Shown piece after piece: positions 1,670 through 16,871 of a DNA stretch of 64,000 nt. Every line of letters starts with the position of its first letter. Position 1 is the stretch's first letter. The notes beneath the pieces were generated by a model. The model had not been told where the DNA came from, did not search any database, and worked only from the letters and a program-made list of their open reading frames with translations. This stretch comes from Alphaproteobacteria bacterium. GTDB lineage: Bacteria; Pseudomonadota; Alphaproteobacteria; WRAU01; Hepatincolaceae. The translations under genes were made by a program, and so were the position numbers. The stretch lies in assembly GCA_031256515.1 (NCBI GenBank), contig JAIRQL010000100.1, positions 19,113-83,112 of the forward strand, given 5' to 3'.

Positions 1670-1698
1670 GGGTTATAATCTAAAAAATTATAGCCCTT
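1668..1698. terminator. Bidirectional hairpin between convergent tadA and ptsG
   Basis: AAGGGTTATAAT / ATTATAGCCCTT 12-bp stem (one G-T pair), 7-nt loop. Confidence 0.55.
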
Positions 1699-1719
1699 AC
1701 CTAGTTTTATAAAAAACAC

Positions 1720-3183
1720 TTAGTTTTTATCAATCCATTTTTGCATGTATTGTCTGAGATTGTCGCTTTTAGCACCAAAAATAGCTTGGACTCCACTACC
1801 AACTACAATACAGCCTGCTGCTCCTAATCTCTTTAATTCATCTTGATTAACTTTAGATTTATCTTTTACTGAAATCCGTAATCTGGTAATACAAGCATCT
1901 AGGTTTGTAATATTTTCTTTACCGCCATAAGCAGCTACTAAATTACCACCTAACTCAAAATCTGCAGCATCTTCTTTTTTATTACTAGTTCCCATAACTC
2001 CATCTAAACCAATAATATTTAAATCGTCCCCTCTTCCTGGAGTTTTTAAATCAAAGGTTCTAATAGCAAACACAAATACAAAAAAGTAAATAAAGAAAGT
2101 AATTATTCCTAAAGGAATTAACATCCAAGCATTAGTTGATTGTGGATATAGTATTATAAAATCAAACAATCCTTGTGAAAATGTAGTTCCATGCCTAATT
2201 CCTAAAAGAATCACTGGAATATAACCAACTGCTGCTAATACACAATGAACTAAATACAAAGCTGGTGCTACAAAAAGAAATGAAAATTCTACTGGTTCGG
2301 TAATTCCGGTTAAAAAAGAAGTTAAAGCCGCTGAAATCATTAAAGAAGCTACCATTTTTTTATTTTCTGGTTTAGCGGTATATATCATGGCAAGTGCTGC
2401 ACCTGGTAAACCATACATACAAAATAAATAAGAGCCAGCTAAGTATCCCGCTGTGCTATCTCCATGTAAATATCTTGGAATTTCTCCGTGTACTACTTCA
2501 CCAGTGGATGTTAGATAAGAACCAATTTCAAAAAAGAATGGCACATTCCAAATATGATGTAAACCAGTTGGAATTAGTAATCTTTCTACAAAAGCATAAG
2601 TAGTATAAGCAATAAGAGGATTTTCGTAAGCAGCCCAGTTAGATCCCACATGGATAAGCCAACCCAAAGGCTGCCAAATAAATACGAATACAACTCCCAA
2701 TAACAAAGCACTTAAACAGGTTATAATTGGCACAAATCTTCTACCACTAAAAAAACCTAAGAAATCTGGCAATTTAATATTGTGATATTTATTATGACAA
2801 AAAGCTGCTAAAAAGCCGATAGCAATACCACCTAGTACTCCGACTTCAACTGAGTTAATACCTAAAATTTCACTAGTTTGCATTCCTATAAACCCAGCAA
2901 CAACCCCCATTGTAGCTAAAAATACATAATAACCACAAATCGCCGCTAAAGCAGCTACTCCATCCATTTTAGTAAAAGCAATAACTGTACCTACTGCAAA
3001 AAGTAGTGGCATAATGGTAAAGATAGAACCACCTGCAGCTTCCATCATTTGGGAAAACCATTGTGGAAGAAAAGGCAAATTAGCCGAACCAATCCCCAGT
3101 AAAATACCTGCAACAGGCAATACTGCCACAGGGAGCATAAAGGCTTGTCCTACCTTTTGTAAGTTAGAAAAAAGCGATCCCAT
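1720..3183 (-). CDS. ptsG: PTS glucose-specific EIICB component
   Basis: [34 protein letters not shown]-terminal [14 protein letters not shown] with phospho-Cys. Confidence 0.92.
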
Positions 3184-3376
3184 TTTTATTTAACCTCGTT
3201 GTTAATCTTAAGCATTATTTAATAAAATGTTGCTACAGATACAACATCTTTATCACACAATTATATCACCATTTTGTTATTAAACAACAAATATCCACTA
3301 AAATGACAAGACTATTAAAACAAGTATTTATTTCTTGCATTTAGTTTTATGATATATTCCTTTAAGGAGAATAAAA

Positions 3377-3682
3377 ATGACTAAGAATATTAAAGTACTT
3401 ATACCACTAATTGCTAAACAAGGAAGATTAGAAGAAGCCGAAAGAATTATTATGGAAATGATTCCTGCTATTAGAAATAACCCTAATTGTTTGGAATTTA
3501 GGGTATTTAAAGATATGCAGAATCCAAATAAGTTTACTCTCTTAGAATATTGGATAAACATGGAAGCTATTACTGAACATAGTAAAAAACCTTATATGGC
3601 AGAAATTATGGCTAAAAAATCTATCATATTTGAAGGTATAGCAGGAGAAATTGTTAGCGAATTATCAACTATAGAAAACTAA
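3377..3682 (+). CDS. ABM-domain (putative quinol monooxygenase) protein
   Basis: 101 aa; pattern IRNNPNCLEF...NKFTLLEYW...AITEH...PYM; AGGAG RBS upstream. Confidence 0.75.
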   Translation: MTKNIKVLIPLIAKQGRLEEAERIIMEMIPAIRNNPNCLEFRVFKDMQNPNKFTLLEYWINMEAITEHSKKPYMAEIMAKKSIIFEGIAGEIVSELSTIEN

Positions 3683-3823
3683 ATATATGGTTTTCATGTA
3701 AGTAAGATTTGATAGTTTCTTTCAATATATTTTAGGAAATATTATTAAATCTTATTAATTATATTGTTTATACTTCTATTGGTTATATATCCATCTCTAC
3801 CAACAGGAGCTTGCTAATCAGGT

Positions 3824-4138
3824 TTATCCTTCACTAATAATTTTATAGGTTATATCTCTACCCTCTTTATCTAAGATATATTTAACTTGCTCAGGATCTA
3901 CTAAAAAGAATTCCCTATTTGGACTTACTCTATATCTATCAAAAACTTCATGTAGTGCTTTTTCAGCTATTTTATAGTTTCTTACTTCATAAACACACTC
4001 TATTTCAAAAGGTGCTGGAATACTTGTAGGGCTATTTAACTCAGCCAATCTTCTTTTCATATTATTAGTTTGCCCTATTTTATATAAATTAGGCATGTAT
4101 TCATTTTTTATAAGATAGATATAACCTCTATTTCTCAT
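3824..4138 (-). CDS. T5orf172/MUG113-type GIY-YIG domain protein
   Basis: GYIYLIKN...YKIGQT...RRLAELNS.TSIPAPF...E..LH..FDRYRVSPNREFF. Confidence 0.85.
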   Translation of the reverse strand: MRNRGYIYLIKNEYMPNLYKIGQTNNMKRRLAELNSPTSIPAPFEIECVYEVRNYKIAEKALHEVFDRYRVSPNREFFLVDPEQVKYILDKEGRDITYKIISEG

Positions 4139-4216
4139 TTTGCGAACCTTTTTATTAATTTTTATAAATATTTTACAACATAATAATAAAATGTATAGAT
4201 ATAAAAATTAAAAAAA

Positions 4217-4232
4217 TGTTTCACATGAAATG
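4217..4232. other. Degenerate parS site
   Basis: TGTTTCACATGAAATG, 3 mismatches to TGTTTCACGTGAAACA. Confidence 0.6.
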
Positions 4233-4254
4233 TTAGCTATATATAATAAATATC

Positions 4255-5793
4255 TTATTTATCATTAATCTTATTAAAAATAACATAAATATTCCCATTG
4301 TATTCAAAAATAGAGCCTTCTTTAGGAAAGATAATATCTTTTTGAGTTTTGCTTTCAATAATATTTCTTAATTCTAAATCAATGTTATTATTATATAGAA
4401 TCTCAACATTAGAGTATCCTATATTTTTAACTAAAGCATTAACTTCATAATGATTAGCCCAAGTTTTAAAATCTGGAAAATATGAAAAAAATCTAAAAAG
4501 ATCCACTTCTCTTTTATTATATAATGAAAATATTTGATTATTATACCCATAAACATATATTTTTGTGCCTACTTTAGAACTTAATTTAAGAGCTTCTAAT
4601 TCAATCTTATCATAGATATATGTATTGACTCTTTCTATAATCTTATTGGCATCAAAAAATCTATCAATCAAAGAAATAGATATTAAAATATAAATAGATA
4701 AAACTACATATAATATTTTCACTAAATACTTATTAAAAACATTGAGTGAAATCATAAATAAAATAGCAAATAAATAATGAATACTATTTAACCTAACATT
4801 AGTTCCATGAATATTTATTAAAATATCCGAAATATAGGAAATAAACATCAAAATAAAAATGCATATAAAAATAAGGATAGATAGAAAATAAGTTCTTTTT
4901 TTGATGATACTATAAATTAATAACATAGTATTTAAAATAACAATGGAATAAAAATAAATAGGCATATGTTTTAATGTAAAAAAAACACTTTTTATTCTGG
5001 CAAAAAGGAGAGATAGACTATCTATTGGAATATACTCTCCTCTCCAACCTCCATACTGTTGTTCTGCATTAAGATAAAAAAGAAGAAACTTATTTATAGT
5101 ATAAAAAATTAAAATTCCTAATAAAATATATACTACATGAAGATATTTATCTTTAATTATTTGTTTAAATGTTACCTTATTATCTAATAAAAATTCACAA
5201 AATATAGATAAAAACAATATAGTAATATAAATATAAAAAACTACTGGCATTAAATTTAATGCAGCAAATATTGCCAAAGCAGAGACAAGTACTTTTAAAT
5301 ATATGTTTAAATTAGTATGTGTAAATACATAATAAGAGTATGATGTTATAAATATACCTAACTGTATCGTAAAAAACATTGTAGACCAATACATAAGGAA
5401 AATATTAAATGGATTTACTATTAATAATAACGATAAAAACAACCAAGATATTTTCGTTATATTAGGAAAAAACAACTTAATTAAAATAAAGTTATTTACA
5501 TAAAAAAGAACAAATCCAAATAGTAAAACTACTTTATAAGATAAATATAATTGGTTAACTATCTCTACAATTATTGGATAAAAAAATCTACTCTCACTAA
5601 TAATGCGATTTTTAACTTCATTTATAAAATTCATCTCGTTAACATAATAAATTATATCATCATGTGCAGAGATAAAATGGAAAAGTATAAAACATATTGC
5701 TAAAACTATCAATAAAAATATATAATAATTTCTATTCTCTTTTATATCTTTTAGAGCATAAGCTAGTAGGTTATTACTTGCTTTACTTAACAT
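4255..5793 (-). CDS. GtrII/GtrC-like polytopic membrane glycosyltransferase, paralog 1
   Basis: About 12 hydrophobic segments, N-terminal HDD, C-terminal soluble domain ending FPKEGSIFEYNGNIYVIF; clear paralog of 8552-10108; near gtrA/gtrB. Confidence 0.65.
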   Translation of the reverse strand: MLSKASNNLLAYALKDIKENRNYYIFLLIVLAICFILFHFISAHDDIIYYVNEMNFINEVKNRIISESRFFYPIIVEIVNQLYLSYKVVLLFGFVLFYVNNFILIKLFFPNITKISWLFLSLLLIVNPFNIFLMYWSTMFFTIQLGIFITSYSYYVFTHTNLNIYLKVLVSALAIFAALNLMPVVFYIYITILFLSIFCEFLLDNKVTFKQIIKDKYLHVVYILLGILIFYTINKFLLFYLNAEQQYGGWRGEYIPIDSLSLLFARIKSVFFTLKHMPIYFYSIVILNTMLLIYSIIKKRTYFLSILIFICIFILMFISYISDILINIHGTNVRLNSIHYLFAILFMISLNVFNKYLVKILYVVLSIYILISISLIDRFFDANKIIERVNTYIYDKIELEALKLSSKVGTKIYVYGYNNQIFSLYNKREVDLFRFFSYFPDFKTWANHYEVNALVKNIGYSNVEILYNNNIDLELRNIIESKTQKDIIFPKEGSIFEYNGNIYVIFNKINDK

Positions 5794-5820
5794 AAATATC
5801 CTTATTGTTGTTTATAAAGA

Positions 5821-5836
5821 TGTTTCACGTGAAACA
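5821..5836. other. parS site (perfect)
   Basis: TGTTTCACGTGAAACA. Confidence 0.92.
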
Positions 5837-5872
5837 TTATTTACAAAAATAAATACTTTTAAATTATTAGTT

Positions 5873-6781
5873 CTAAAAGTTTAATAGTTTTTTTAGTTCT
5901 TCTATATTAGAGTACTTAATTTTAACTTCGCCTGAATTTGTATCTTTAGGATTTATTTTAACTCTAATTTGAGGGAATTCCCCGACAACTTTATCTTGCC
6001 AAGCAAGTATTTCGGTACTTAATTTAGCAAGTTTTTCTTTTTCTCTTTCAAAAGCCACACTGTTATCTTTAACAAGCTTTTCGGCTTTTCTTACATTGAG
6101 GTCATCTTTAATAATTTTTTGAGCTATTTCCATAGGATTTTCAGCACTCACCAGCATTTTTGCATGCCCTGCTGAAATTGAACCGCTTTTTATCAGTTGT
6201 AAAATATCTTGGGGTAAACTTAATATTCTTAAAAAATTAGTAACATAGCTTCTACTTCTTCCTACTACTTTTGCTACATCTTCATGAGTATAATTAAACT
6301 CATCACAAAGATTTTTATAAGCTACAGCCTCTTCTATAACATCTAAATCTTTTCTATGGAGATTTTCAATTAAGCCAATCTCCATAACCTCTTTATCGCT
6401 AGCCTCTATAATAATTGCTGAAATTTGCTCTAATCCTGCTAACTTACTAGCACGACATCTTCTTTCTCCAGCAATAATTTCATATCTATTTTCATCAATT
6501 TTTCTTAAAAGAACTGGTTGAATTACACCTTTTTCTTTAATAGAATTTGCTAAGTTTTCTAACTCTTCCTGATTAAAAGTTTTTCTAGCTTGATAACGAG
6601 ATGGCTCACATTTGTTTAAATCTACCTTAACTATATGAAAAGCCGATGGAATATTTATTTCTTTGACTTCTTTATTACCAATATCACCTAATAATGCGGA
6701 AATTCCTTTGCCTAAAGATGGAGCTTTTTTAAAATTTCCTCTAGCCACCATTATTTCTTTTAAATCTATATCTTTTGTCAT
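5873..6781 (-). CDS. parB: Chromosome partition protein ParB
   Basis: LGKGISALLG, YQARKTF, IIAGERRCRA, ENLHRKDL, HTH GRSRSYVTNFLRIL. Confidence 0.95.
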   Translation of the reverse strand: MTKDIDLKEIMVARGNFKKAPSLGKGISALLGDIGNKEVKEINIPSAFHIVKVDLNKCEPSRYQARKTFNQEELENLANSIKEKGVIQPVLLRKIDENRYEIIAGERRCRASKLAGLEQISAIIIEASDKEVMEIGLIENLHRKDLDVIEEAVAYKNLCDEFNYTHEDVAKVVGRSRSYVTNFLRILSLPQDILQLIKSGSISAGHAKMLVSAENPMEIAQKIIKDDLNVRKAEKLVKDNSVAFEREKEKLAKLSTEILAWQDKVVGEFPQIRVKINPKDTNSGEVKIKYSNIEELKKLLNF

Positions 6782-6783
6782 GT

Positions 6784-7572
6784 TTATACCTTTTGTCTTT
6801 CTTGCAAGATTACCTCAGAGGCTAAATCTATATAAGCCTTTGAACCAACACAATTTGGATCATAAACTAAAACTGGATAGCCATGTGAAGGAGCTTCTGA
6901 AACTCTTACATTTCTTGGAATTACTGTATTATAAACTAATTTACCATAGTACTTTCTAACATCATCGTTTATCATTTTTGATAAATTATTTCTTGAATCG
7001 TACATGGTAAGCACAATACCACGAATTTTTAAACCAGTATTAATTGATACATTAATAGTTTCAATAGTTTTAATTAAATGGCTTAAACCTTCTAAAGCAA
7101 AATACTCACATTGTAAAGGAATCAATACCTCATGTGAAGCAGCTAAAGCATTTACTGTTAGTAATCCTAAAGAAGGCGGACAATCTATTAAAATATAGTC
7201 AAATTTTTGAGTAGCCTCTTGGAGAGCATTTTTAAGATAAAACTCTTTTTTCTCAATACTTGCTAATTCTACCTCTGCACCAGAAAGATCCATCGTTGCT
7301 GGAATTATACTTAGGTTAGGAATTGGAGTACTTATAGCAACTTTATCTAAAGGTTCTTGCCCTAAAATAAAATTATAGCTTGTAGCTTTAAACGAATCGT
7401 TATAAATTCCTAAACCACTGGTAGAATTACTTTGTGGATCAAGATCTACCACTAGCACTTTTCTTTTCATAGCACATAAAGCTGTTGCTAAATTCATAGT
7501 TGTGGTAGTTTTACCAACTCCACCTTTTTGATTAACAATAGAAATAATCTTTGAGTCTTTTTGTCCTTTCAT
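6784..7572 (-). CDS. parA: Chromosome partition ATPase ParA (start moved to ATG 7572)
   Basis: Deviant Walker A NQKGGVGKTTT, DLDPQ, IDCPPSLG, EAPSHG. Confidence 0.95.
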   Translation of the reverse strand: MKGQKDSKIISIVNQKGGVGKTTTTMNLATALCAMKRKVLVVDLDPQSNSTSGLGIYNDSFKATSYNFILGQEPLDKVAISTPIPNLSIIPATMDLSGAEVELASIEKKEFYLKNALQEATQKFDYILIDCPPSLGLLTVNALAASHEVLIPLQCEYFALEGLSHLIKTIETINVSINTGLKIRGIVLTMYDSRNNLSKMINDDVRKYYGKLVYNTVIPRNVRVSEAPSHGYPVLVYDPNCVGSKAYIDLASEVILQERQKV

Positions 7573-7751
7573 AATGTCTCTTATTTGTAGAAAGTTTCCT
7601 ATGCAATATTGCATTGTTTTATAGAAAATTTATATAATTAATTTAGCAATTAATCAAGATAAAACTGTTTTAAATGTTATTATAATATAATTATATATTA
7701 TAATTCCTTAGAATTTGCTATGTTTGTTTAGCTAATAAAAAATGGTCTTAA

Positions 7752-7767
7752 CGTTTCACGTGAAACA
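7752..7767. other. parS site
   Basis: CGTTTCACGTGAAACA, 1 mismatch. Confidence 0.88.
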
Positions 7768-7781
7768 TCTTTTGCTAATTA

Positions 7782-8480
7782 TTAAATATTTTCAACAATT
7801 ATAATCTTACTATCATGGTTAGTAAGGCTTTGCTTAACAGAAACTTTCAAATTACATTCTTGATTAGCAGATATTTGGTTTACTAGAGATTTATTTTTGC
7901 TATTTAAACCATCTATCTCCTGCAAATAATTTTGCCCCTTAAGGAATATACAAACACTATCTTGTTTGCTAAACATTCTTGCAGAATCTACTAAGCTATC
8001 TAATTTGGTTAATCCTCGTGAAAGGATAATATCTGCTTTAATGTTTTCTTTAGAAAAATCTTCAATTCTTTTATTTACTACAATCACATTTTTAAGTTCT
8101 AAAACTCTAACTATCTCAGATAAGAAAGCAGTTTTTTTAGAATTAGATTCTATTAAGTAATATTTATTTTTAGTATCAATAACAGCTAAAACTAAACCAG
8201 GAAAACCTGCACCTGAGCCTAAATCAAAAACATTTAAAGATTCACTAGATATATTTTGTGTATTATCTCTTGGTAAAGTCTCTTTTTTACTTTCTTCTAC
8301 TGCTTTGATTTCTTTAATAAGTTGTAGTGAATCATAAAAATGTCTTTGCCAAGCATTGGTAATAGTATCATTAGAAATTAGATTAAGAGACCTCTGCCAA
8401 AATAATAATATTTCTAAATATTTTTCTAGCTTTTTGTAGAGGAAATCTTCCACCTCTAAATCAAGAATATCAATATACAC
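7782..8480 (-). CDS. rsmG: 16S rRNA m7G527 methyltransferase RsmG/GidB (start proposed at GTG 8480, behind AGGGA RBS)
   Basis: WQRSLNLIS, RHFYDS, DLGSGAGFPG, ESNSKK, LKG motifs; between mnmG and parA. Confidence 0.92.
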   Translation of the reverse strand: MYIDILDLEVEDFLYKKLEKYLEILLFWQRSLNLISNDTITNAWQRHFYDSLQLIKEIKAVEESKKETLPRDNTQNISSESLNVFDLGSGAGFPGLVLAVIDTKNKYYLIESNSKKTAFLSEIVRVLELKNVIVVNKRIEDFSKENIKADIILSRGLTKLDSLVDSARMFSKQDSVCIFLKGQNYLQEIDGLNSKNKSLVNQISANQECNLKVSVKQSLTNHDSKIIIVENI

Positions 8481-8497
8481 TAATATATCCCTAGTTA

Positions 8498-8526
8498 TTA
8501 TAAACAATGTTTCACGTGAAACATTA
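8498..8526. repeat. 29-bp direct repeat copy A containing perfect parS (8508-8523)
   Basis: TTATAAACAATGTTTCACGTGAAACATTA, identical to 10127-10155. Confidence 0.9.
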
Positions 8527-8551
8527 GTCTAGCATATAATAATTTATAACT

Positions 8552-10108
8552 CTACCTATTATCTTTAGAGAAAATAACATAAATATTTCCATTATATTCA
8601 AAAATAGATCCTTCTTTTGGAAATAAAATATCTTTTTGAATTTTACTATCAATAATATTTCTTAGCTCTTTATCAATATTATCATCAAATAAATGTTCAA
8701 CATTATAATACCCAATATTACTAATTAAGAATGGTAACTGATAATAAAACTTAGAATACATTGTAGTTCTTAATTTATAAGAAAATATATCTAATAAATC
8801 CATATCCCTCTTAAATATATTAAAAGATTTGTTGGATCCATAAGTATATACTTTTGTTTTATAGTTAGAACTTTGACTTATGTTTAAATTAGAACTTTCT
8901 AATTCAACTCTATCGTAAATATATGTATTGATTCTATGTATATTAGCATTAATCTTAGAATACCTATCAATCAAAGATACAGACATTAAAATATAAATAG
9001 CTAAAATTACATATAATATTTTCACTAAATATTTATGAAAAACATTTAATGAAATCATAAATAAAATAGAAAATAAGTAGTATATACTATGTAATCTTAC
9101 AGGAGTCCCTCTAATATTTATTAGAATATCTGTAATATAAGGAACAAACATCAAAATAAAAATACAAATAAAGAAAAGTATAGAAAGCCAATATACTCTT
9201 CTCTTATAAAGATTGTAAACTAAAAACATAATATTAATAATAATTATAGAATAAAAATAAATAGGAAGTTGATTTTTTAAAGTAAGAAAAATATTTTTTA
9301 TTCTAGTAAAAAGAATTGATAAACTATCTATTGGAATATATTCACCTCGAGATGGTAAATAATTATGACTATTTATTGAAAAAATAAAAAACAACAACTT
9401 AATTATAATAAAATAAATAGTTACACTTAATAAAATATATATAATATGTAGATAGTTATCTTTAATAATTTTCTTAAATGTTGCTTCACCATCTAATAAA
9501 AATTTATAAAAAATAGATAAGAATAATATAGTTATATAAATATAAAAAATTACAGGCATTATTTGTATGGAAATACATAAAAATACAGCTAAAATAATTA
9601 TTTTTAGATATTTATTTAAACTAAAATATAAAAATATATAATAAGACCAAAATATCATAAACACACCTAATTGTATGCTAAAAAACATTGTAGACCAATA
9701 TAAAAGGTGAATATGAAAAGGATTTACTATTAATAATAAAGATAAAAATAACCAAGATATTTTTGTTATATTTGGAAAAAATAATTTAATTAAAACAAAA
9801 TTATTTATATAAAAAAGAATAAAACCAAATAATAAAATAATTTTAGGTGATAAGTATAATAAATTTATCATATAAATGATTATAGGATAGCCAGCTCTAT
9901 ATTCAGCAGATAATCTAAATAAAAAATCATTTTTGAAGTTAATACTATCATAAAAGTACATTAAGTCATCTTGAGCAAAAACAAATGAATAAGAAGAAAA
10001 AATTATAGCCAAGAATATCAAAAAAATTATATGATAATTTTTATTTTCTTTTATATCACTAAATATATAGGAAAACAGACTATTTTTCTGATTACTTAAT
10101 TTATTCAA
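8552..10108 (-). CDS. GtrII/GtrC-like polytopic membrane glycosyltransferase, paralog 2
   Basis: Paralog of 4255-5793 (shared FPNITKISWLFLSLLLIVNPF, RGEYIPIDSLS, FPKEGSIFEYNGNIYVIF); TTG start with AGGA RBS. Confidence 0.65.
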   Translation of the reverse strand: MNKLSNQKNSLFSYIFSDIKENKNYHIIFLIFLAIIFSSYSFVFAQDDLMYFYDSINFKNDFLFRLSAEYRAGYPIIIYMINLLYLSPKIILLFGFILFYINNFVLIKLFFPNITKISWLFLSLLLIVNPFHIHLLYWSTMFFSIQLGVFMIFWSYYIFLYFSLNKYLKIIILAVFLCISIQIMPVIFYIYITILFLSIFYKFLLDGEATFKKIIKDNYLHIIYILLSVTIYFIIIKLLFFIFSINSHNYLPSRGEYIPIDSLSILFTRIKNIFLTLKNQLPIYFYSIIIINIMFLVYNLYKRRVYWLSILFFICIFILMFVPYITDILINIRGTPVRLHSIYYLFSILFMISLNVFHKYLVKILYVILAIYILMSVSLIDRYSKINANIHRINTYIYDRVELESSNLNISQSSNYKTKVYTYGSNKSFNIFKRDMDLLDIFSYKLRTTMYSKFYYQLPFLISNIGYYNVEHLFDDNIDKELRNIIDSKIQKDILFPKEGSIFEYNGNIYVIFSKDNR

Positions 10109-10126
10109 TATAACTATCCTAATTTT

Positions 10127-10155
10127 TTATAAACAATGTTTCACGTGAAACATTA
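10127..10155. repeat. 29-bp direct repeat copy B containing perfect parS (10137-10152)
   Basis: TTATAAACAATGTTTCACGTGAAACATTA, identical to 8498-8526. Confidence 0.9.
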
Positions 10156-10171
10156 TGCTAATATTTTTATT

Positions 10172-12046
10172 TTACTTCTTCTGCTTTTTAATATAGGCTA
10201 ATAGGGCGATGGCGGAAGAAGGAGTAGCTCCACGAATTCTTAAGGCTGCACCTATGGTTGCAGGTTTAATTTTATTAAATTTTTCCACAAGTTCACTAGA
10301 AAGTCCATCTACTTGTAAATAATCAATATCTTCTGGGATATTAAGATTCTCTTCCTTTTTAAACAAAGCAATTTCTTCCTCTTGTTTTTTTAGATAATGA
10401 TAATATTTACAGTCAGTATTTATAACCTCCATAATATCTTTTGGAATATCTTTTAGTTCCTCCCAAATATTAGCTAAATCTTGAAAGTTAACCGTATTAA
10501 AAGAAAGTATCTCTAAAGCATTTCTTTTAATCCCATCTTGATTCATATGAATTCCAGCTTTTATTAACATTTGAGGAGTTGCAATTAATCCTTGCATAAT
10601 ATCTTTATACTTATTGATTAAATTCATTTTAGCCAAAAATTTATCATTCCTTTCAATAGAAACACAACCAGCTATAAAACCTTTAGCAGTTAATCTTCTA
10701 TCGGCATTATCGGCTCGCAACATCATACGATACTCTGCCCTACTGCTAAACATTCTGTAAGGTTCGCTAACTCCTTGATGGATTAAATCATCTATCATTA
10801 CCCCAATGTAAGATTCATCACGACCAAGTACGAATTTTTTTAAACTACCATCATTTTCTTTAATTTCTAAAGATTTTAAAGCCGCATTAATTCCAGCTAC
10901 TAAGCCTTGACCTGCTGCTTCTTCGTATCCTGTTGTACCATTAATTTGACCCGCTAAAAACAAATTTTTAACCTTATGAGTTTCTAAGGTATTAGCTAAT
11001 TCTTGTGGGTTTACATAATCGTACTCTATGGCATAGCCAAATCGTAAAATCTCTACACTTTCTAAGCCTTTCATAGAGCGAATGAATTTTTCTTGAACTT
11101 CTTCTGGTAGCGATGTGGATATACCATTAGGATACACCGTATCATCGTCTAACCCTTCTGGCTCTAAAAATATTTGGTGTTTGTTTTTATCGGCAAATCT
11201 AACCACTTTATCTTCTATAGAAGGACAATAGCGAGGACCAACTCCCGAAATATTACCACTATACATTGCCGATTTTTTAATATTATCTTTAATTATTTGA
11301 TGGGTTATTTCGTTAGTTTCGGTAATATAGCAAGATATTTGGGGTATATCTATTTTATCATTTAAAAATGAAAAAGGCTTTGGCTCAATATCCGCATCTT
11401 GTCTTTGCAAAACTGACCAGTTGATAGTTTTACCATTTAAACGGGCAGGTGTACCAGTTTTTAGCCTTGCTACCTCAAAATTTTGATTTTTTAAAAATTC
11501 ACTTAAACCAAGCGAAGGATTAGCCCCATATCTGCCACCAGGATAGTTTTTTGTTCCTATATGAATAACACCATTAAGAAAAGTTCCAGTGGTTAAAATC
11601 ACCGATTTTGTAGGTATTTTTTCACCGTTGCTTAAAACAACAGCTTCTATTATGCCATTATTAAGGATTATATTTTCTGCTGATCCTTCTAGAATAGTTA
11701 AATTATATTTTTTTTGATATTCTGATAATGTTTCACGTGAAACATTTTTATAAAGTTTTCTATCTGCTTGTGAACGAGGACCTTGAACCGCTGCCCCTTT
11801 AGAGGCATTAAGAACTCTAAATTGAATGCCAGATCTATCTATAATTCTACCCATTAAACCATCAAGAGCATCAATTTCTCTAACTATATGCCCTTTACCT
11901 AAGCCTCCAATTGCAGGATTACAAGACATTTGACCTATATCATCTAAATTAAGAGTAATAAGAAGAGCTTTAGCACCAACCTTAGCCGCCGCCGCTACTG
12001 CCTCTACTCCTGCATGCCCGCCACCAATAACTACTACATCATACAT
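10172..12046 (-). CDS. mnmG: tRNA uridine-5-carboxymethylaminomethyl modification enzyme MnmG/GidA (start ATG 12046)
   Basis: VIGGGHAGVEA, MSCNPAIGG, GPRYCPSIEDK, AGQINGTTGYEEAAGQG. Confidence 0.97.
   Translation of the reverse strand: MYDVVVIGGGHAGVEAVAAAAKVGAKALLITLNLDDIGQMSCNPAIGGLGKGHIVREIDALDGLMGRIIDRSGIQFRVLNASKGAAVQGPRSQADRKLYKNVSRETLSEYQKKYNLTILEGSAENIILNNGIIEAVVLSNGEKIPTKSVILTTGTFLNGVIHIGTKNYPGGRYGANPSLGLSEFLKNQNFEVARLKTGTPARLNGKTINWSVLQRQDADIEPKPFSFLNDKIDIPQISCYITETNEITHQIIKDNIKKSAMYSGNISGVGPRYCPSIEDKVVRFADKNKHQIFLEPEGLDDDTVYPNGISTSLPEEVQEKFIRSMKGLESVEILRFGYAIEYDYVNPQELANTLETHKVKNLFLAGQINGTTGYEEAAGQGLVAGINAALKSLEIKENDGSLKKFVLGRDESYIGVMIDDLIHQGVSEPYRMFSSRAEYRMMLRADNADRRLTAKGFIAGCVSIERNDKFLAKMNLINKYKDIMQGLIATPQMLIKAGIHMNQDGIKRNALEILSFNTVNFQDLANIWEELKDIPKDIMEVINTDCKYYHYLKKQEEEIALFKKEENLNIPEDIDYLQVDGLSSELVEKFNKIKPATIGAALRIRGATPSSAIALLAYIKKQKK
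11729..11744. other. parS site inside mnmG coding sequence
   Basis: Perfect TGTTTCACGTGAAACA; read on the coding strand as N-V-S-R-E-T. Confidence 0.85.
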
Positions 12047-12061
12047 ATAAATCACCTATAA

Positions 12062-12556
12062 CTAATATCTACGAGGCTTAAATGTATAAGTTTTTTTAGT
12101 TTTTTGCTTATGAGTATTTTGTTTATAAATAGGGCGATATAAATAATCTACGAAATAGTTAAAAGCATAGTGCTTTAAAGCAATATAAGTTAAAACAAAA
12201 ACTACCCCTAAACTTATAACCGCTGTAAAAGTTCTATCAATCCCTAATAAGCCACTTAAAAAAGCCATAAGGAATAAATTTACAAAAAAAGCTCCAGCTA
12301 GAACTATTATGGTTTTAATATATTCTGGCAGTGGAGCTACTCTTGTGTTAAATACAAAAAACCTAAACATACAGTAAGAAAAGCTAGCAGGAACAATAAA
12401 ATTGATAAACACTGCCATGTAATAAGAGTTTTTAAAATACATACCAAAAAACAAACTAACATAAAACAAATAAGCTACTAAAGAGTTTATTAGGGTAATA
12501 AGAGTATATCTTATTGTAATTGGTATTTTAAAATAGGTTTCAGCAATGTTTTTCAT
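12062..12556 (-). CDS. GtrA-family protein
   Basis: 4 TM segments, RYTLITLINSLVAY, FFVF motif, basic C-terminal tail; adjacent to a second GtrA and to GtrB. Confidence 0.7.
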   Translation of the reverse strand: MKNIAETYFKIPITIRYTLITLINSLVAYLFYVSLFFGMYFKNSYYMAVFINFIVPASFSYCMFRFFVFNTRVAPLPEYIKTIIVLAGAFFVNLFLMAFLSGLLGIDRTFTAVISLGVVFVLTYIALKHYAFNYFVDYLYRPIYKQNTHKQKTKKTYTFKPRRY

Positions 12557-12621
12557 TTTAATCTCTAGTATCCTTTATAGTATAAGAGTATATTATATCT
12601 TAATTATAGGGAAATAAAAAT

Positions 12622-13056
12622 TTATTTATCTGTATTGGTATCTCTTTTTTTAAATGCAAATATCTTTAAAACAAAATAAGTGATAATTGGCATAATAATA
12701 ACGGCAATACCTTGCCCCATGTAGGCAGACATTCCATACATATTGATAGTTATAAATAATATTAAGTAATTTACCGGATATAAGAAAGCATAAGATATAT
12801 AAGTAGAAACCCCTTCTTGTAGCCAATTACCTTTGGTTTTAAATACAAAAATCTTAAAAAGAATAAAATTATTAAGTATTCCAACAATAAAAGCAAATAT
12901 TAAAATGATAGCATAGTGAAGATTATTGCCCCAAAGGTAATAAAAGAGTGAGAATACAAGCCATCCAAAAACAGTATTGTAGCCACCTACTATAATAAAC
13001 CTAATAAATTGCGGAAAGTTGCACCAAATGTTGTATACTTTTTTTATTGTTTCCAT
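12622..13056 (-). CDS. gtrA: GtrA-family bactoprenol-linked sugar translocase
   Basis: QFIRFIIVGGYNTVFG, 4 TM segments, FVFK motif. Confidence 0.85.
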   Translation of the reverse strand: METIKKVYNIWCNFPQFIRFIIVGGYNTVFGWLVFSLFYYLWGNNLHYAIILIFAFIVGILNNFILFKIFVFKTKGNWLQEGVSTYISYAFLYPVNYLILFITINMYGMSAYMGQGIAVIIMPIITYFVLKIFAFKKRDTNTDK

Positions 13057-13076
13057 TGTTTGCCTCTATGGTGTTG

Positions 13077-14027
13077 TTAGTAAAAGTTGTTAATATTATC
13101 TTTGTTTATTATTTCATTAATTACCGAATTTGGCGAGCCTTTTATTTCATCAAAAATTCTTGAAATATACTCTCCTAAAAGCCCCATAAATAAAAATTGA
13201 ATGCCAAAAAGAAATAGTATAGATACCATAATAGAAGGGTATCCTCTTATAGAATTACCAAAAACTAATTTATCAATAACTATTACTATTCCATATATAA
13301 AAGCAACGGAAGCTAATATAAATCCAAAAACACTTGACAATCTAAGTGGCAAAGATGTTGTGTTAAAAATTCCATCTAAAGCTAATTTAAATAGTTTAAA
13401 ATAGTTAAATTTAGTTTTACCAAAAGCTCTTTTTTCTCTTTTATAAGAAACTTCAATCTGTGAAAAGCCAACCACATGGTAAATTCCTTTCATAAAAAGG
13501 TGTTTATTATTAATTTTAGCAATACTATTAATTACTTTTCTATCTAGTAATCTAAAATCACCAGCATTAAAAGGGATTTTAATTCCAGAAATTAAGTTAT
13601 AGAATTTATAAAACAAAGAAGATGTTTTTTTCTTTAAAAAGCTATCAGTATCTCGGTTGTTTCTAACTCCATAAACCATATTATAGCCTTGTTGCCATAA
13701 AGATATAAAATCCTTTATTATATAAAGGGGATCTTGTAAATCTACATCACAAATAATGCAAGCATCAGCTTTGGTATTTTTAATTCCAGCCATAATTGCT
13801 TGCTCTTTACCAAAATTTTTAGAAAAATCTATTAAAGATACATTGCCATATTTTCTTATAGCTTGTAAAATAAGGAGTTTAGTATTATCACTACTACCAT
13901 CATTTATAAAACAGTAAGTAAACGAAACACTAGGGATATCTTTAATTACCTTATTGCATTCCTCAATAAAGTTAAAAATATTTTCTTCCTCATTGTATAC
14001 TGGTAGTAATATTTCTATGGTTTTCAT
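13077..14027 (-). CDS. gtrB: GT2 bactoprenol glycosyltransferase (GtrB-like)
   Basis: LPVYNEE, NDGSSD, FSKNFGKEQA, DVDLQDP, GDFRLLDR, two C-terminal TM helices. Confidence 0.9.
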   Translation of the reverse strand: MKTIEILLPVYNEEENIFNFIEECNKVIKDIPSVSFTYCFINDGSSDNTKLLILQAIRKYGNVSLIDFSKNFGKEQAIMAGIKNTKADACIICDVDLQDPLYIIKDFISLWQQGYNMVYGVRNNRDTDSFLKKKTSSLFYKFYNLISGIKIPFNAGDFRLLDRKVINSIAKINNKHLFMKGIYHVVGFSQIEVSYKREKRAFGKTKFNYFKLFKLALDGIFNTTSLPLRLSSVFGFILASVAFIYGIVIVIDKLVFGNSIRGYPSIMVSILFLFGIQFLFMGLLGEYISRIFDEIKGSPNSVINEIINKDNINNFY

Positions 14028-15451
14028 GGCTTATTATTTTTTTTTTCTATTATTTTGTACTCTGTTGAATCATCGTCAGTAATTTCAAATTTTAAATCTG
14101 GATGACCTCCACTATACTTTTTAACTGCATTTTCACAGTAAGGAACTGCCCAATCTGCATAAAAACATCTAATAATAAAATCTCTCTCACTTTTTGGAAT
14201 TTTTAATATCAAATTATTACCTTTTTTTAAAGGATAATCATGAGTGCTTGCTATATTTTTAATTAATTTATAGTAGGTTTTATCAATATCATTTATATAT
14301 TTATATTTAATAATAGTTTTATTTAATAAGATAAATGAGAAAATAAAAAACACTATGAAATATATGGAATTTACAATTATAACATTAGTTCTTTTATTAA
14401 AAATAGCAAATATTAAATTTAAAAAGATTACACAAAAACATAATATTAAAAACAAACTTAATGTAAATTTACCTATTCCACCTGCTCACCAATCAGTCTT
14501 ACTAGCAAATATAAGAGGTATTCCTAAGTATAGGCAGATTAAAAAAGAAATTTTAATAAATTTTTCATTAATAAAAAAATTAAGTAATTTTTTGTATAAT
14601 AAAAAAAGTGAGAATAAAACAAATAAAATTAAAAATAATAAAAATAACTTATTGTTAATATGAAAAACATTATTAATATCAAATAATGATAGTTTATATC
14701 TGTGAGGATAAAGATTAAAAAAATTCTCATCCATATCAATTAATTTTCTTGATCTAATTTCAGATGAAAATAAGATTACAGAAACAAAACCAAAAATCCC
14801 AAAAATTATACCATTTATACTCCACAGAGGTATCCTTTTATTCTTCAAATAATAAAATAAAACCGATAAACCCATCATTCCTAAAAAAATAGGCACAGAA
14901 ACATACGAGTTCATAAAAGATGTAAAATATACAACAGGAACTAATAAAAATATAATCCACTTATTATTAATAATATTTTTATTATAAAATAAATAAAAAT
15001 ATGGGATAAATACTAACAACAGTAAAACATTTCCAAATAAATGATTTAATGATCCAGATACCCACAAAGATAATTCTACAAACATGAATAATGATTGAAT
15101 ACTAACCCATAAAACAAATATTATAAAAATAAAAAATATATCTTTGTAAGATTTAGGTAGCTTTGTAAAAGAATAAAAGAAAACTAAATTAATAAATATA
15201 ATATGAACTATAGAGATAAATATATTATAATATATTTTATCAAATCTTAAAAAGATTATAGATAGAGTCTCTCCAACTCTTGCATTCCATTCCATTGATT
15301 GGATAATGCTTCTATTATAAATAATTTTACCTATATCATCTATAAAGTTTAGTGGAAAAATAGAGTTAAAATAATAAAAATACATAAATATAAGTATATT
15401 AAGTATTATAAAGCTGATTAATACTTTTATATCTAAATTATTTTTTAACAT
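14024..15451 (-). pseudogene. GtrC-type (DUF6056-like) membrane glycosyltransferase interrupted by one in-frame TGA at 14486-14488
   Basis: Track ORFs 14486-15463 and 14024-14455 are in the same frame; read-through gives a protein of almost the same length as the intact 477-aa paralog upstream and aligned with it to the C-terminus (KFEITDDDSTEYKIIE vs KFEITNDDSLEYKIIE). Confidence 0.8.
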
Positions 15452-16871
15452 TTGTTCTTTCAATTATTTTATACTCTAATGAATCATCATTAGTAATTTC
15501 AAATTTAGTATTAAGATTCCCACCATAAAATTTTATCATAGATTTACCACACCAGTTATAAGCATCATCAATTAAACAACCCATATAAAAATCTTCTTTT
15601 ATTAAAATAACTAATTCACTATCTTTTGGATAACTTTTAGTTTCTTTAATTAAACTATTAATTTTTAAAATATTATTACTTAAATCTACAACCTGCTTAT
15701 TATGATGAATAGTTTTTATTATTAATAAACCTAAAAAAATTAAACCTATTAATCCCATAAATAAATATTTTATTTTACTGTTAGTTAATTTATTAAATAG
15801 GAGTTCAATGCAAACAATAAAGAACATTATGGCTAAAAATCTATTAAATACTATATTTCTTTCAGCTATCCAAGGTCCAACTGTTAATATGATAATACTA
15901 CCAAAATATAAACTAAAGATTAAAAAAATTTTAATAAAAGTTTCATTTTTCAAGATCCTTATATCTTTTCTAAAAATTAATACACACAATATATATGTTA
16001 TAAAAATCAATAATATCAATAAGAATAATTTATAATTTATATATAAATATTTGTTAATAAGTATAAAATTATAACGATAAACATGAAAATCTTTTATTAT
16101 ACTTTTTTCAACCGTCCCTGTTTGAGATGAAAGTATAAGAACACATAAAAACCCTAAAAATCCTGAGATAATTCCAACAATAGACCAAACTGGAATTTTT
16201 TTGTTTTTAAAATAATAAAATAAAACCGATAAACCCATCATTCCTAAAAATAAAGGCACAGAAGTATATGAGTTCATAAAAGATATAAAATATATAATTG
16301 GAACTAATAAAAATATAACCCAATTATTCTTAATAATATTTTTATTATAAAACAAATAAAAATATGGGATAAATACTAACAACAGTAAAACATTTCCAAA
16401 TAAATGATTTAATGTACTTGCTACCCATAAACTATTTTCAGAAAAAATTATTTGTAAAGAAATATATAAAACAAAAATAATAAACAAATAAAATACATCT
16501 TTATATCTACTAGGAGATTTAGAGAAAGAATAGAAAAATACTAAATTTATAAAAACAATATTTATAAATGAAATAAAAACATCATAATAAAACTTATCAA
16601 AATATTTAAATATATAAGATAATGACTCTCCTATTCTGGCATTCCAATGCAATGAATTTTTAACATGATTATAAATTAGTTCTATCTTTGAAAAATCAAG
16701 ATTTTTAGCAATTAAATACTCAGAAGTGTTTACATAATCATCATTAAATAAAGGAAAAATGGAACTAAAATAATAGAAGTATATAAATATTAATATATTT
16801 ATAGATACATACAAAAGCCAAAATACTTTTTTATTTTCTTCAAAGTTATTTACCAATGCAGAACTTCCCAA
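15438..16871 (-). CDS. GtrC-type (DUF6056-like) polytopic membrane glycosyltransferase, intact paralog (true start probably a TTG overlapping the mnmE stop)
   Basis: FPLFNDD, WNARIGE, LWVASTLNHL motifs; many TM segments; family name recalled, not searched. Confidence 0.65.
   Translation of the reverse strand: MGSSALVNNFEENKKVFWLLYVSINILIFIYFYYFSSIFPLFNDDYVNTSEYLIAKNLDFSKIELIYNHVKNSLHWNARIGESLSYIFKYFDKFYYDVFISFINIVFINLVFFYSFSKSPSRYKDVFYLFIIFVLYISLQIIFSENSLWVASTLNHLFGNVLLLLVFIPYFYLFYNKNIIKNNWVIFLLVPIIYFISFMNSYTSVPLFLGMMGLSVLFYYFKNKKIPVWSIVGIISGFLGFLCVLILSSQTGTVEKSIIKDFHVYRYNFILINKYLYINYKLFLLILLIFITYILCVLIFRKDIRILKNETFIKIFLIFSLYFGSIIILTVGPWIAERNIVFNRFLAIMFFIVCIELLFNKLTNSKIKYLFMGLIGLIFLGLLIIKTIHHNKQVVDLSNNILKINSLIKETKSYPKDSELVILIKEDFYMGCLIDDAYNWCGKSMIKFYGGNLNTKFEITNDDSLEYKIIERTNVKK

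What the first reader, a model, noticed from the sequence alone, without database searches (positions are those of the whole stretch)
4217..10155. parS-bounded gene cassettes: GtrII paralogs appear inserted at, and bracketed by, centromere sites
Seen: both GtrII-like genes have a parS on each side. Paralog 2 (8552-10108) is flanked by an exact 29-bp direct repeat TTATAAACAATGTTTCACGTGAAACATTA (8498-8526 and 10127-10155); recombination between the copies would excise it and restore the canonical mnmG-rsmG adjacency with one parS. Paralog 1 (4255-5793) is flanked by a perfect (5821) and a decayed (4217) parS, as expected of an older event. The stop-to-parS spacers of the two paralogs are also similar (TTATTATAT..AG.CTAA). 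Inference: parS palindromes act as att/target-duplication sites, making an integron- or pdif-like array of exchangeable surface-glycosylation genes at the centromere. I know of no described system like this. No recombinase is in the window. Alternative: a conserved composite regulatory site, since TTATAAACA is also a 1-mismatch DnaA box and recurs at oriC 20057-20065.
Basis: partly seen in the sequence, partly recalled or inferred. Interest (0 to 1): 0.85.

Follow-up and report, generated by a model that had tools for sequence, protein, structure and literature searches.

The report
Centromere sites flanking inserted glycosyltransferase genes
The repeats are real, but they are most simply the chromosome's normal cluster of ParB-binding centromere sites, which sit in the gaps of a conserved origin-proximal operon where this bacterial group gains and loses accessory surface-sugar genes; nothing here shows a gene-cassette system.

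Summary
An exact 29-bp direct repeat (8498-8526 and 10127-10155), containing a perfect parS, flanks GtrII-like paralog 2. Paralog 1 lies between a perfect parS (5821) and a decayed one (4217).

The window is the oriC-proximal rho-mnmE-mnmG-rsmG-parA-parB operon of an AT-rich alphaproteobacterium from termite gut, related to Hepatincolaceae. It holds five strong parS within 6 kb.

Relatives give a mixed picture:
- **For a variable slot:** one relative has the empty mnmG-parS-rsmG site, and others carry unrelated genes there.
- **Against parS as an insertion site:** four relatives hold a gene in that slot with parS on one side only. Several keep two parS with no gene between them. The nearest GtrII homolog sits beside mnmE with no parS within 10 kb. 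Ca. Hepatincola Pdp has nine parS in a gene-free repeat array. No recombinase is in the window.

Best reading: this is an ordinary multi-parS centromere whose spacers are accessory-gene hot spots, plus a local duplication of a roughly 46-bp parS+leader module.

One point stays open. In two lineages, paralogs each carrying a 3' parS occupy different parS-bounded slots, so recombination assisted by parS homology remains possible (about 0.25). An integron- or pdif-like system is unlikely.

The parts
10127..10155 (.). Copy 1 of the exact 29-bp repeat. It contains a perfect parS (10137-10152) and lies 19 nt after the mnmG stop and 28 nt before the GtrII-2 start.
8552..10108 (-). GtrII-like paralog 2: 518 aa, a divergent polytopic GtrC-type glycosyltransferase, 18% GC.
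8498..8526 (.). Copy 2 of the exact 29-bp repeat. It contains a perfect parS (8508-8523) and lies 28 nt after the GtrII-2 stop and 27 nt before the rsmG GTG start at 8480.
7782..8480 (-). rsmG (gidB), 16S rRNA m7G527 methyltransferase.
7752..7767 (.). parS with 1 mismatch in the rsmG|parA spacer. Every relative examined has a parS at this position.
6784..7614 (-). parA (soj), a ParA-type ATPase.
5873..6781 (-). parB, with ParB_N and HTH_ParB domains and the GERRCRA arginine-patch motif.
5821..5836 (.). Perfect parS, 36 nt after the parB stop and 27 nt before the GtrII-1 start. Its leader is related to the other two leaders.
4255..5793 (-). GtrII-like paralog 1: 512 aa. PF14264 scores 29.2 bits over 315 of 317 profile positions, just under the cut-off.
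4217..4232 (.). Decayed parS (3 mismatches), 22 nt after the GtrII-1 stop.
11729..11744 (.). Perfect parS inside mnmG, encoding N-V-S-R-E-T. It lies at the same offset (311 nt from the start codon) in all seven clade lineages checked.
10172..12055 (-). mnmG (gidA).
12062..16871 (-). Resident gtr-type glycosylation block between mnmE and mnmG. It holds two GtrA-like genes (12062-12556 and 12622-13056), a GtrB/ArnC-like GT2 (13077-14027), a split DUF6056 glycosyltransferase (14024-15463) and an intact DUF6056 glycosyltransferase (15438-16871).
3824..4138 (-). T5orf172/MUG113 (GIY-YIG-like) 104-aa gene next to the decayed parS. It is part of the larger lineage-specific insert between parB and the deaminase gene (1247-1669). 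That insert also holds an ABM-domain gene and PTS EIICB, and it has no parS at its far end.

Best explanation
**What it is.** This is the chromosomal ParABS centromere of an AT-rich, small-genome alphaproteobacterium from termite gut, related to Hepatincolaceae.

**How it works.**
- Five strong 16-bp parS sites and one decayed site lie within about 7.5 kb of the conserved oriC-proximal operon rho-mnmE-mnmG-rsmG-parA-parB. One site is inside mnmG; the others are in the intergenic spacers.
- From established ParABS knowledge, ParB loads at these sites as a CTP-dependent clamp and spreads over the region, and ParA then segregates the origin. This step is inferred, not shown here.
- In this clade the operon's spacers are hot spots for lineage-specific accessory genes, mostly surface or secreted functions. 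A GtrA/GtrB/GtrC-type glycosylation locus sits permanently between mnmE and mnmG.
- In the window's lineage, two old GtrII-family paralogs (GtrC-type membrane glycosyltransferases) occupy the mnmG|rsmG spacer and the spacer after parB. By analogy they use the polyprenyl-phosphate sugar made by the GT2 at 13077-14027 and handled by the GtrA-like proteins.

**Why parS sits on both sides.**
- parS positions at the ends of conserved genes are ancestral.
- A roughly 46-bp parS+leader module (29 bp exact) was duplicated locally when, or after, GtrII-2 arrived. The likely route is general recombination or segmental duplication, possibly kept uniform afterwards by gene conversion.

Deletion between the 29-bp repeats is possible, as it is for any direct repeat, but it is incidental and not a dedicated cassette mechanism.
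For: **Shown here**
- parS count and enrichment. oriC lies at about 19.5-20.2 kb by the GC-skew switch and perfect DnaA boxes.
- ParA and ParB domains and the GERRCRA motif.
- parS occupy conserved positions across the clade: inside mnmG at nt 311, upstream of rsmG, upstream of parA, and after parB.
- The slots vary. mnmG|rsmG is empty in A and L100. It holds a 224-aa gene in B, an orthologous 326/333-aa gene (frameshifted in L019) in D, an unrelated 150-aa gene in L015, and a 243-aa gene in Pdp.
- Slot genes with only one flanking parS occur in D and Pdp.
- parS multiply without cargo: tandem pairs in A, B, C and distant lineages, and nine perfect parS in repeat units in a gene-free 2.2-kb stretch of Pdp.
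- The GtrII homolog in A lies in the gtr block without parS.
- The window's own parB-to-deaminase insert is not parS-bounded at its far end.
- No recombinase is in the window.
- Gtr context: two GtrA-like genes, a GT2 similar to PgfS/ArnC, DUF6056 glycosyltransferases, and remote GtrII relatives that pass PF14264.

**From the literature**
- Caulobacter has at least five clustered parS and about 10 kb of ParB occupancy (PMC5815017).
Against: - The 29-bp exact identity is longer than any exact run (24 nt) in 1.5 kb of paralogous coding sequence. It therefore needs a recent event or gene conversion, which is assumed rather than shown.
- In two independent lineages, paralogs each carrying a 3' parS sit in different parS-bounded spacers: the window's GtrII pair and B's 224-aa and 156-aa secreted proteins. 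Plain tandem duplication does not readily explain this.
- ParB binding and the Gtr enzymatic function are inferred from homology only.
Confidence: 0.58

Rival explanations
1. The parS palindromes are themselves the recombination substrate, with no dedicated recombinase. Short-homology or hairpin-assisted events between dispersed parS copies move 'gene + 3' parS' units between spacers, in either orientation, and can also delete or invert segments. Candidate events are ectopic gene conversion after a break at a ParB-bound site, Campbell-type integration of an excised circle, and template switching.
For: - The window's GtrII-1 and GtrII-2 lie in two different parS-bounded slots, with related leaders and weakly related 3' spacers.
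- Relative B has two paralogous secreted-protein genes in two slots, on opposite strands. In each, parS abuts the stop codon, and the 3' ends share the nucleotides GTGCAGTTTGAAGA..TAA followed by parS.
- The identity extends beyond the core on the leader side, as expected for homologous rather than site-specific exchange.
- In Ca. Hepatincola Pdp the parA-parB segment is inverted, and both junctions carry parS.
- Relative A shows the state that deletion would produce.
Against: - 16-29 bp of homology is marginal for RecA-dependent exchange, and the window encodes MutS.
- Every spacer here contains parS, so any viable rearrangement endpoint lies near one by default.
- Slot genes with a single parS (D, Pdp) and parS pairs with no cargo show the association is not obligatory.
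- No junction or circle evidence was found (contigs only).
- The sample is only two paralog cases plus one inversion.
Confidence: 0.25
2. One reading: a dedicated integron- or pdif-like site-specific system in which parS serves as the att site and a recombinase encoded outside the window inserts and excises glycosylation cassettes.
For: - Direct repeats flank GtrII-2.
- One relative has the empty site and others have different cargo.
- Cargo genes have parS at their 3' ends in the window and in B.
Against: - No tyrosine or serine recombinase or transposase is among the window's ORFs, and none was annotated next to the operon in any relative locus.
- The site is the canonical ParB-binding 16-mer, at positions conserved relative to core genes.
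- Flanking parS in A and B are in inverted orientation around their cargo.
- Cargo occurs without a second site, and sites occur without cargo.
- The GtrII homolog in A has no parS nearby.
- No described recombinase is known to use parS (my own knowledge; two literature searches found nothing of the kind).
Confidence: 0.04
3. The 29-mer is a conserved composite regulatory site. It would combine parS with an adjacent DnaA box or promoter element that controls the downstream gene, and the two copies would be alike through selection rather than duplication.
For: - Three parS are followed by TTTATAA and a Shine-Dalgarno-like AGGAT at a fixed 27-28 nt before a start codon.
- TTATAAACA is mildly enriched: 8 occurrences against 3.65 expected, with 4 of 100 shuffles reaching 8.
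Against: - TTATAAACA is two mismatches from the DnaA box, and the perfect boxes cluster at 20045-20197.
- The flank motif is absent at the orthologous parS of every relative.
- A -10 element at that position would start transcription within the Shine-Dalgarno sequence (inference).
- The promoter scan is uninformative in this AT-rich DNA: 58 hits against 63.6 expected.
Confidence: 0.06

Closest known systems
Chromosomal ParABS centromere clusters, such as the five or more parS near parAB in Caulobacter crescentus (Tran et al. 2018, PMC5815017) and the origin-proximal parS of Bacillus subtilis
   Same: - The canonical 16-bp parS.
- Several copies within a few kb of parAB and oriC.
- Location within and around the mnmG(gidA)-rsmG(gidB)-parA-parB genes, including one site inside a coding sequence.
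- A ParB with the N-terminal arginine-patch motif.
   Different: Here accessory genes are interleaved between the sites. One parS+leader module is duplicated exactly (29 bp). The content of the spacers varies between close relatives.
Integron cassette arrays (intI, attI, attC)
   Same: - A one-directional array with cargo genes followed by a palindromic site at the 3' end.
- Direct repeats whose recombination would excise the cargo.
- Cargo differs between relatives.
   Different: - No integrase and no attI.
- The site is a 16-20-bp perfect palindrome bound by ParB, not a 57-141-bp imperfect attC.
- The sites flank essential core genes too.
- Cargo exists without a second site, and sites exist without cargo.
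pdif modules on Acinetobacter plasmids (XerC/XerD sites flanking resistance genes)
   Same: Short, host-maintenance-related palindromic sites bracket accessory genes. In relatives A and B the flanking sites are in inverted orientation.
   Different: - The site is parS, not an 11-6-11 dif-like sequence.
- No evidence of Xer involvement.
- The context is chromosomal and next to the origin.
- No recurrence of the same module in different contexts was seen.
gtrABC O-antigen glucosylation clusters of Shigella and Salmonella (pro)phages
   Same: The same three kinds of protein are present: GtrA-like small membrane proteins, a GtrB-like GT2 that makes polyprenyl-phosphate sugar, and variable polytopic GtrC-type transferases including GtrII-family relatives. 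As in those clusters, the type-specific transferase is the variable, duplicated part.
   Different: - Not prophage-borne and not one contiguous gtrA-gtrB-gtrC unit.
- The GtrC-type genes are spread through the par operon.
- The family is extremely divergent: only 6 hits at E<1e-3 among 1.84 billion representatives.
- The target glycan is unknown.
Accessory-gene hot spots between highly conserved core genes, such as O-antigen or capsule loci exchanged by recombination in conserved flanks
   Same: - Variable surface-related genes lie between strongly conserved neighbours (MnmG 79-85% and ParA 82-89% identical across the clade).
- Content differs by lineage, with pseudogenisation in place (L019).
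   Different: The slots are very small, often a single gene, and sit inside an essential operon next to the centromere sites.

Membership tests
Chromosomal ParABS centromere (parS array) | 16-bp inverted repeat matching TGTTNCACGTGAAACA, present far above chance | tested here: met
   Four perfect sites, two with 1 mismatch and one with 3 mismatches, against 0.12 expected.
Chromosomal ParABS centromere (parS array) | Sites clustered near oriC and next to parA-parB | tested here: met
   Six of the seven sites lie within 4217-11744. parAB is at 5873-7614. The GC-skew switch and perfect DnaA boxes lie at about 19.5-20.2 kb.
Chromosomal ParABS centromere (parS array) | Cognate ParB with an N-terminal CTP-binding (GERRxR) motif and HTH domain, plus a ParA ATPase | tested here: met
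   ParB_N and HTH_ParB at E about 1e-32, the GERRCRA motif, and ParA AAA_31 at 6e-64.
Chromosomal ParABS centromere (parS array) | ParB occupancy of the sites in vivo or in vitro | not testable with these tools
   The organism is uncultured and known only from a metagenome.
Integron | intI tyrosine recombinase adjacent to the array | tested here: not met
   Pfam scans of the window's ORFs found no integrase, recombinase or transposase. None was listed beside the operon in relatives.
Integron | attC sites: imperfect 57-141-bp palindromes specific to cassettes | tested here: not met
   The repeat core is a 16-20-bp perfect parS palindrome. It also flanks core genes and occurs inside mnmG.
Integron | Each cassette is bounded by a site, and empty or alternative cassettes occur in relatives | tested here: inconclusive
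   Relative A has the empty site and B has alternative cargo with two sites. D and Pdp have cargo with one site, and C, A, B and Pdp have site pairs without cargo.
pdif / Xer-dependent modules | Flanking sites are XerC-spacer-XerD (11-6-11) dif-like sequences | tested here: not met
   The flanking repeat is the canonical parS 16-mer with AT-rich flanks. The comparison with the dif architecture rests on my own knowledge.
pdif / Xer-dependent modules | The same module recurs in different replicons or contexts | tested here: not met
   The GtrII family has only three close members. The third (P0002) is in a different context without parS.
GtrABC-type glycan-modification system | GtrA-like small membrane protein (PF04138) | tested here: met
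   Two copies at 12062-12556 and 12622-13056, scoring 37.9 and 53.1 bits against a cut-off of 26.1.
GtrABC-type glycan-modification system | GtrB-like GT2 polyprenyl-phosphate glycosyltransferase | tested here: inconclusive
   13077-14027 matches PF00535 at 81.9 bits. Full-length similarity to PgfS (219 bits) and ArnC (168 bits) falls below the equivalog cut-offs.
GtrABC-type glycan-modification system | Type-specific polytopic transferase of the GtrII family (PF14264) | tested here: inconclusive
   Paralog 1 scores 29.2 bits against a cut-off of 30 over 315 of 317 profile positions. Paralog 2 and P0002 give no hit. Profile hits P0124, P0125 and P0126 pass PF14264 at 39, 106 and 81 bits. No solved structure matched.
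GtrABC-type glycan-modification system | Contiguous gtrA-gtrB-gtrC unit, typically prophage-borne | tested here: not met
   The GtrII-like genes are separated from GtrA and GT2 by mnmG and by rsmG-parAB. There are no phage genes nearby.

The most novel reading that the evidence does not exclude
parS centromere palindromes act as dispersed recombination-prone repeats. They would work through short homology, hairpin formation or ParB-induced fork stalling, without a dedicated recombinase. In Hepatincolaceae-like symbionts they would repeatedly copy, invert and delete 'gene + 3' parS' units within the par operon. That would turn the centromere array into a small, self-renewing slot system for surface and secreted-protein genes.
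Probability: 0.22. Interest if true: 0.6.

Novelty: new member of a known kind. Interest (0 to 1): 0.35.

Why it matters
If the ordinary reading holds, the window adds a clear example of a multi-parS centromere in an uncultured clade of arthropod-gut symbionts. It also shows that the spacers of the supposedly rigid rho-mnmE-mnmG-rsmG-parAB operon can be hot spots for surface-glycosylation and secreted-protein genes. That is useful for annotating such genomes and for studying symbiont surface variation.

If parS homology really drives the copying, centromere sites would have a second role as engines of local gene turnover. A simple reporter assay could test this.

Tried and rejected
- **Genome-contig scan with RsmG.** It returned only two distant hits.
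- **Metagenome-contig scan with an RsmG alignment.** It added only one close locus (L021, the same organism as relative A). The distant loci were still useful as a baseline for parS pairs without cargo.
- **Search for excision or circle junctions.** Only one run holds the organism, and only as Logan contigs. The listed 'joints' come from other runs, have 20-26-nt sides, and mostly end at parS positions, so I read them as chance matches to the parS of other bacteria. The result is inconclusive.
- **Rfam scan of the window.** No matches.
- **Promoter and terminator scan.** No better than shuffles in this AT-rich DNA.
- **parS as an RNA hairpin or terminator.** Stems are only -5.7 to -8.9 kcal/mol. 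I kept this as speculation only.
- **Search for remnants of a decayed slot gene in relative C's 580-bp parS-to-parS interval.** None found.
- **Alignment of intergenic spacers across relatives to locate the insertion point.** Nothing aligns apart from parS.
- **Profile search of the PDB with the GtrII alignment.** No meaningful hit.
- **DnaA-box reading of TTATAAACA.** Rejected.
- **Assembly artefact.** Rejected, because an independent assembly spans both junctions at even depth.

Full report
**1. What is in the window**

All genes from 428 to 19439 lie on the minus strand, co-oriented with replication. GC skew changes sign at about 19-20 kb. Perfect DnaA boxes (TTATCCACA) lie at 20045 and 20189, so oriC is at about 19.5-20.2 kb.

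Reading away from oriC, the genes are as follows:
- rho (18168-19439)
- mnmE (16846-18165)
- a DUF6056 glycosyltransferase (15438-16871)
- a split paralog of that glycosyltransferase (14486-15463 plus 14024-14455)
- a GtrB/ArnC/PgfS-like GT2 (13077-14027)
- two GtrA-like genes (12622-13056 and 12062-12556)
- mnmG (10172-12055)
- GtrII-like paralog 2 (8552-10108)
- rsmG (7782-8480)
- parA (6784-7614)
- parB (5873-6781)
- GtrII-like paralog 1 (4255-5793)
- a T5orf172/GIY-YIG-like gene (3824-4138)
- an ABM-domain gene on the plus strand (3377-3682)
- PTS EIICB (1720-3183)
- a cytidine/dCMP-type deaminase on the plus strand (1247-1669)
- an RluA-type pseudouridine synthase (428-1195)

ParB carries the GERRCRA motif. 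The nearest named ParB relatives (48-50% identity) are from Candidatus Hepatincolaceae. The only public run holding this sequence is a termite gut metagenome.

**2. The observation**

The exact 29-mer is at 8498-8526 and 10127-10155 and nowhere else in the window, even allowing 3 mismatches. The similarity extends to 46 nt at 87% and includes the Shine-Dalgarno region.

parS-like 16-mers occur seven times, against 0.12 expected:

| Position | Mismatches | Location |
|---|---|---|
| 4217 | 3 | after GtrII-1 |
| 5821 | 0 | parB to GtrII-1 spacer |
| 7752 | 1 | rsmG to parA spacer |
| 8508 | 0 | GtrII-2 to rsmG spacer |
| 10137 | 0 | mnmG to GtrII-2 spacer |
| 11729 | 0 | inside mnmG |
| 60269 | 1 | inside a GH38 gene |

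With a per-base match probability of 0.35 in these spacers, 13 extra identical flank bases have a probability of about 1e-6 per pair. The two copies are therefore related by copying or by gene conversion.

The paralogs share 60% amino-acid and 73% nucleotide identity. The longest exact run in their 1.5-kb coding alignment is 24 nt, which is shorter than the flanking repeat.

On the minus strand, three parS are each followed by T(T/C)(G)TTTATAA, then (A/T)AGG(G)ATA, then a start codon at 27-28 nt (GtrII-2, rsmG, GtrII-1). The three leaders are significantly alike (p from 0.0007 to 0.004). The two 3' spacers are only weakly alike (p about 0.02).

An independent assembly (L003 and a neighbouring contig) spans both junctions at even depth.

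- TTATAAACA is two mismatches from the DnaA box, not one.
- The 'GtrII' label rests on a sub-threshold Pfam hit (29.2 bits against a cut-off of 30, paralog 1 only). It gains indirect support from remote profile hits that pass PF14264.

**3. Comparative evidence**

Relatives were reached through RsmG and ParB homologs and their contigs. parS were mapped by script.

- **Relative A** (RsmG 66% identical; L007/L021).
  - Order: mnmG, one parS, rsmG, two parS 99 bp apart, parA, parB, parS, DUF4406, parS, deaminase.
  - The mnmG|rsmG spacer is 156 bp and empty.
  - A's GtrII homolog (P0002) is 56-58% identical to both window paralogs. It lies directly after mnmE inside the gtr block, with no parS (3 mismatches or fewer) within 10 kb.
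- **Relative B** (62%; L010/L011/L098).
  - Order: mnmG, parS, a 224-aa secreted-type gene, parS, rsmG, parS, a 135/156-aa gene on the opposite strand, two parS 121 bp apart, parA.
  - After parB come parS, two genes, parS, then two more genes with no further parS before the deaminase.
- **Relative C** (55%; complete 1.47-Mb genome, L012).
  - Order: mnmG, parS, 580 bp with no credible gene, parS, rsmG.
  - No remnant of any slot gene was detected in that interval.
- **Clade D** (55-57%; L013-L020).
  - An orthologous 326/333-aa gene sits between mnmG and rsmG, frameshifted in L019.
  - L015/16 carries an unrelated 150-aa gene there instead.
  - In every case parS is present on the rsmG side only.
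- **Outgroup L100** (Hepatincolaceae symbiont, 1.0 Mb). A compact rho-mnmE-mnmG-rsmG-parA-parB-deaminase operon with just two parS, both in the rsmG|parA spacer.
- **Ca. Hepatincola sp. Pdp** (L101).
  - A 243-aa gene sits between mnmG and rsmG, with parS on the mnmG side only.
  - Nine perfect parS lie in 60-130-nt repeat units in a gene-free 2.2-kb stretch upstream of parA.
  - The parA-parB segment is inverted in place.
- **Distant lineages.** Some have tandem parS pairs about 71 bp apart in the mnmG|rsmG spacer with no gene between them. Others have 2-4 kb between mnmG and rsmG with no parS there.

The intragenic parS in mnmG is at the same offset (311 nt from the start codon) in all seven clade lineages checked.

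**4. What this means**

Three points follow.
- The parS are an ancestral centromere array anchored to the ends of conserved genes. They were not brought in by cargo.
- The spacers mnmG|rsmG, rsmG|parA and parB|deaminase really are variable slots in this clade.
- Bracketing by parS is neither necessary for cargo (D, Pdp, and the far side of the window's own parB-deaminase insert) nor dependent on cargo (A, B, C, Pdp and distant lineages).

No integrase, Xer-type recombinase or transposase is present among the window's ORFs. The only nuclease-like gene nearby is the small T5orf172 protein. The literature baseline for clustered parS near parAB is Caulobacter, with at least five sites and about 10 kb of ParB occupancy (PMC5815017). 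Two full-text searches found no report of parS acting as an integration site.

**5. Mechanism I commit to (confidence about 0.58)**

This is a normal ParABS centromere. ParB loading and spreading are inferred from the motifs. Its operon spacers act as accessory-gene hot spots, which is plausible because the flanking core genes are highly conserved and give homology anchors: MnmG is 79-85% and ParA 82-89% identical across the clade.

The GtrII-like genes are lineage-specific GtrC-type transferases belonging to the resident gtr locus. The second parS next to GtrII-2 comes from a local duplication of a roughly 46-bp parS+leader module. It either arose recently or has been kept uniform by gene conversion.

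Shown: the anatomy, conservation, variability and duplication. Inferred: the recombination route, ParB binding and the enzymatic function.

**6. What remains odd**

In two independent lineages, a pair of paralogs occupies two different parS-bounded spacers, and each copy has a parS at its 3' end.
- The window has the GtrII pair.
- Relative B has the 224-aa and 156-aa secreted proteins, on opposite strands.
- In B, the 3' ends share GTGCAGTTTGAAGA..TAA directly followed by parS.

Together with the Pdp inversion bounded by parS-bearing spacers, this keeps one rival alive: parS homology or hairpins assist ectopic copying, inversion and deletion (about 0.25). Because every spacer here holds a parS, the association could also be trivial. 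A dedicated integron- or pdif-like system gets about 0.04. The composite regulatory-site idea gets about 0.06, since the flank motif is not conserved at orthologous sites in any relative.

**7. Verdict**

- Observation: confirmed.
The insertion and the variable slot hold; the att-site or integron-like mechanism does not.
- Novelty: a new member of a known kind, namely a multi-parS centromere array with interleaved accessory genes.
- Interest: 0.35. Raw-read junction analysis and a parS-repeat reporter assay would settle the remaining question.

Noticed in passing
L101 5822-8055 (Ca. Hepatincola sp. Pdp, CP097809.1): Nine perfect parS lie in a gene-free 2.2-kb stretch upstream of parA, embedded in 60-130-nt repeat units. 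One 77-nt pair is 100% identical but flanks a run of N, so it may be an assembly artefact.
   Followed up: partly
L101 8208-14088: The parA-parB segment is inverted in place relative to rho-mnmE-GtrA-mnmG-243aa-rsmG. Both inversion junctions carry parS (10233, and the array at 5822-8055).
   Followed up: no
window 14024-15463 and 15438-16871: These are tandem DUF6056-family membrane glycosyltransferase paralogs (55% identical). The downstream copy is split into 325-aa and 143-aa ORFs, so it is probably frameshifted or a pseudogene.
   Followed up: partly
window 3824-4138 (-): A 104-aa T5orf172/MUG113 (GIY-YIG-like) gene lies directly beside the decayed parS at 4217. It could be a free-standing homing-type nuclease gene. 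It is absent from this position in all relatives examined.
   Followed up: no
window 61127-62752 (+): A 541-aa ORF with a reverse-transcriptase domain (RVT_1, 63 bits). It could be a group II intron-type or a defence-type reverse transcriptase; I did not determine which.
   Followed up: no
window 60269-60284: A 1-mismatch parS lies inside a GH38 alpha-mannosidase-like gene (58278-60917), about 40 kb on the other side of oriC from the main array.
   Followed up: no
window 11729-11744 and the orthologous position in L007, L010, L012, L013, L015, L019: The parS inside mnmG starts 311 nt after the start codon in every clade lineage checked. It encodes N/K-V-S-R/H-E-T. The central CG-to-CA variant of parS changes Arg to His.
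   Followed up: partly
L010 7643-7680 and 7764-7800: A parS plus an extra half-site (TGTTCCACGTGGAACATACnnGTATGGAACATTTT) is duplicated 121 bp apart upstream of parA, with no gene between the copies. Each genome also has its own dominant parS variant: CACATG in A, TTCC/GGAA in B.
   Followed up: partly
L094-L097 (clade D, four Logan assemblies): All four contigs carrying the same RsmG end 200-510 bp upstream of rsmG, inside the variable slot. This suggests strain heterogeneity or repeats there.
   Followed up: no
window 7782-8480: The window's RsmG is 232 aa, against 211-214 aa in all close relatives. Pfam matches GidB in two stretches, which suggests an internal insertion of about 20 aa.
   Followed up: no
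window 4255-5793 and 8552-10108: This GtrII-like family is extremely isolated. A full HMMER profile search of 1.84 billion representative proteins gave only 6 hits at E<1e-3.
   Followed up: yes
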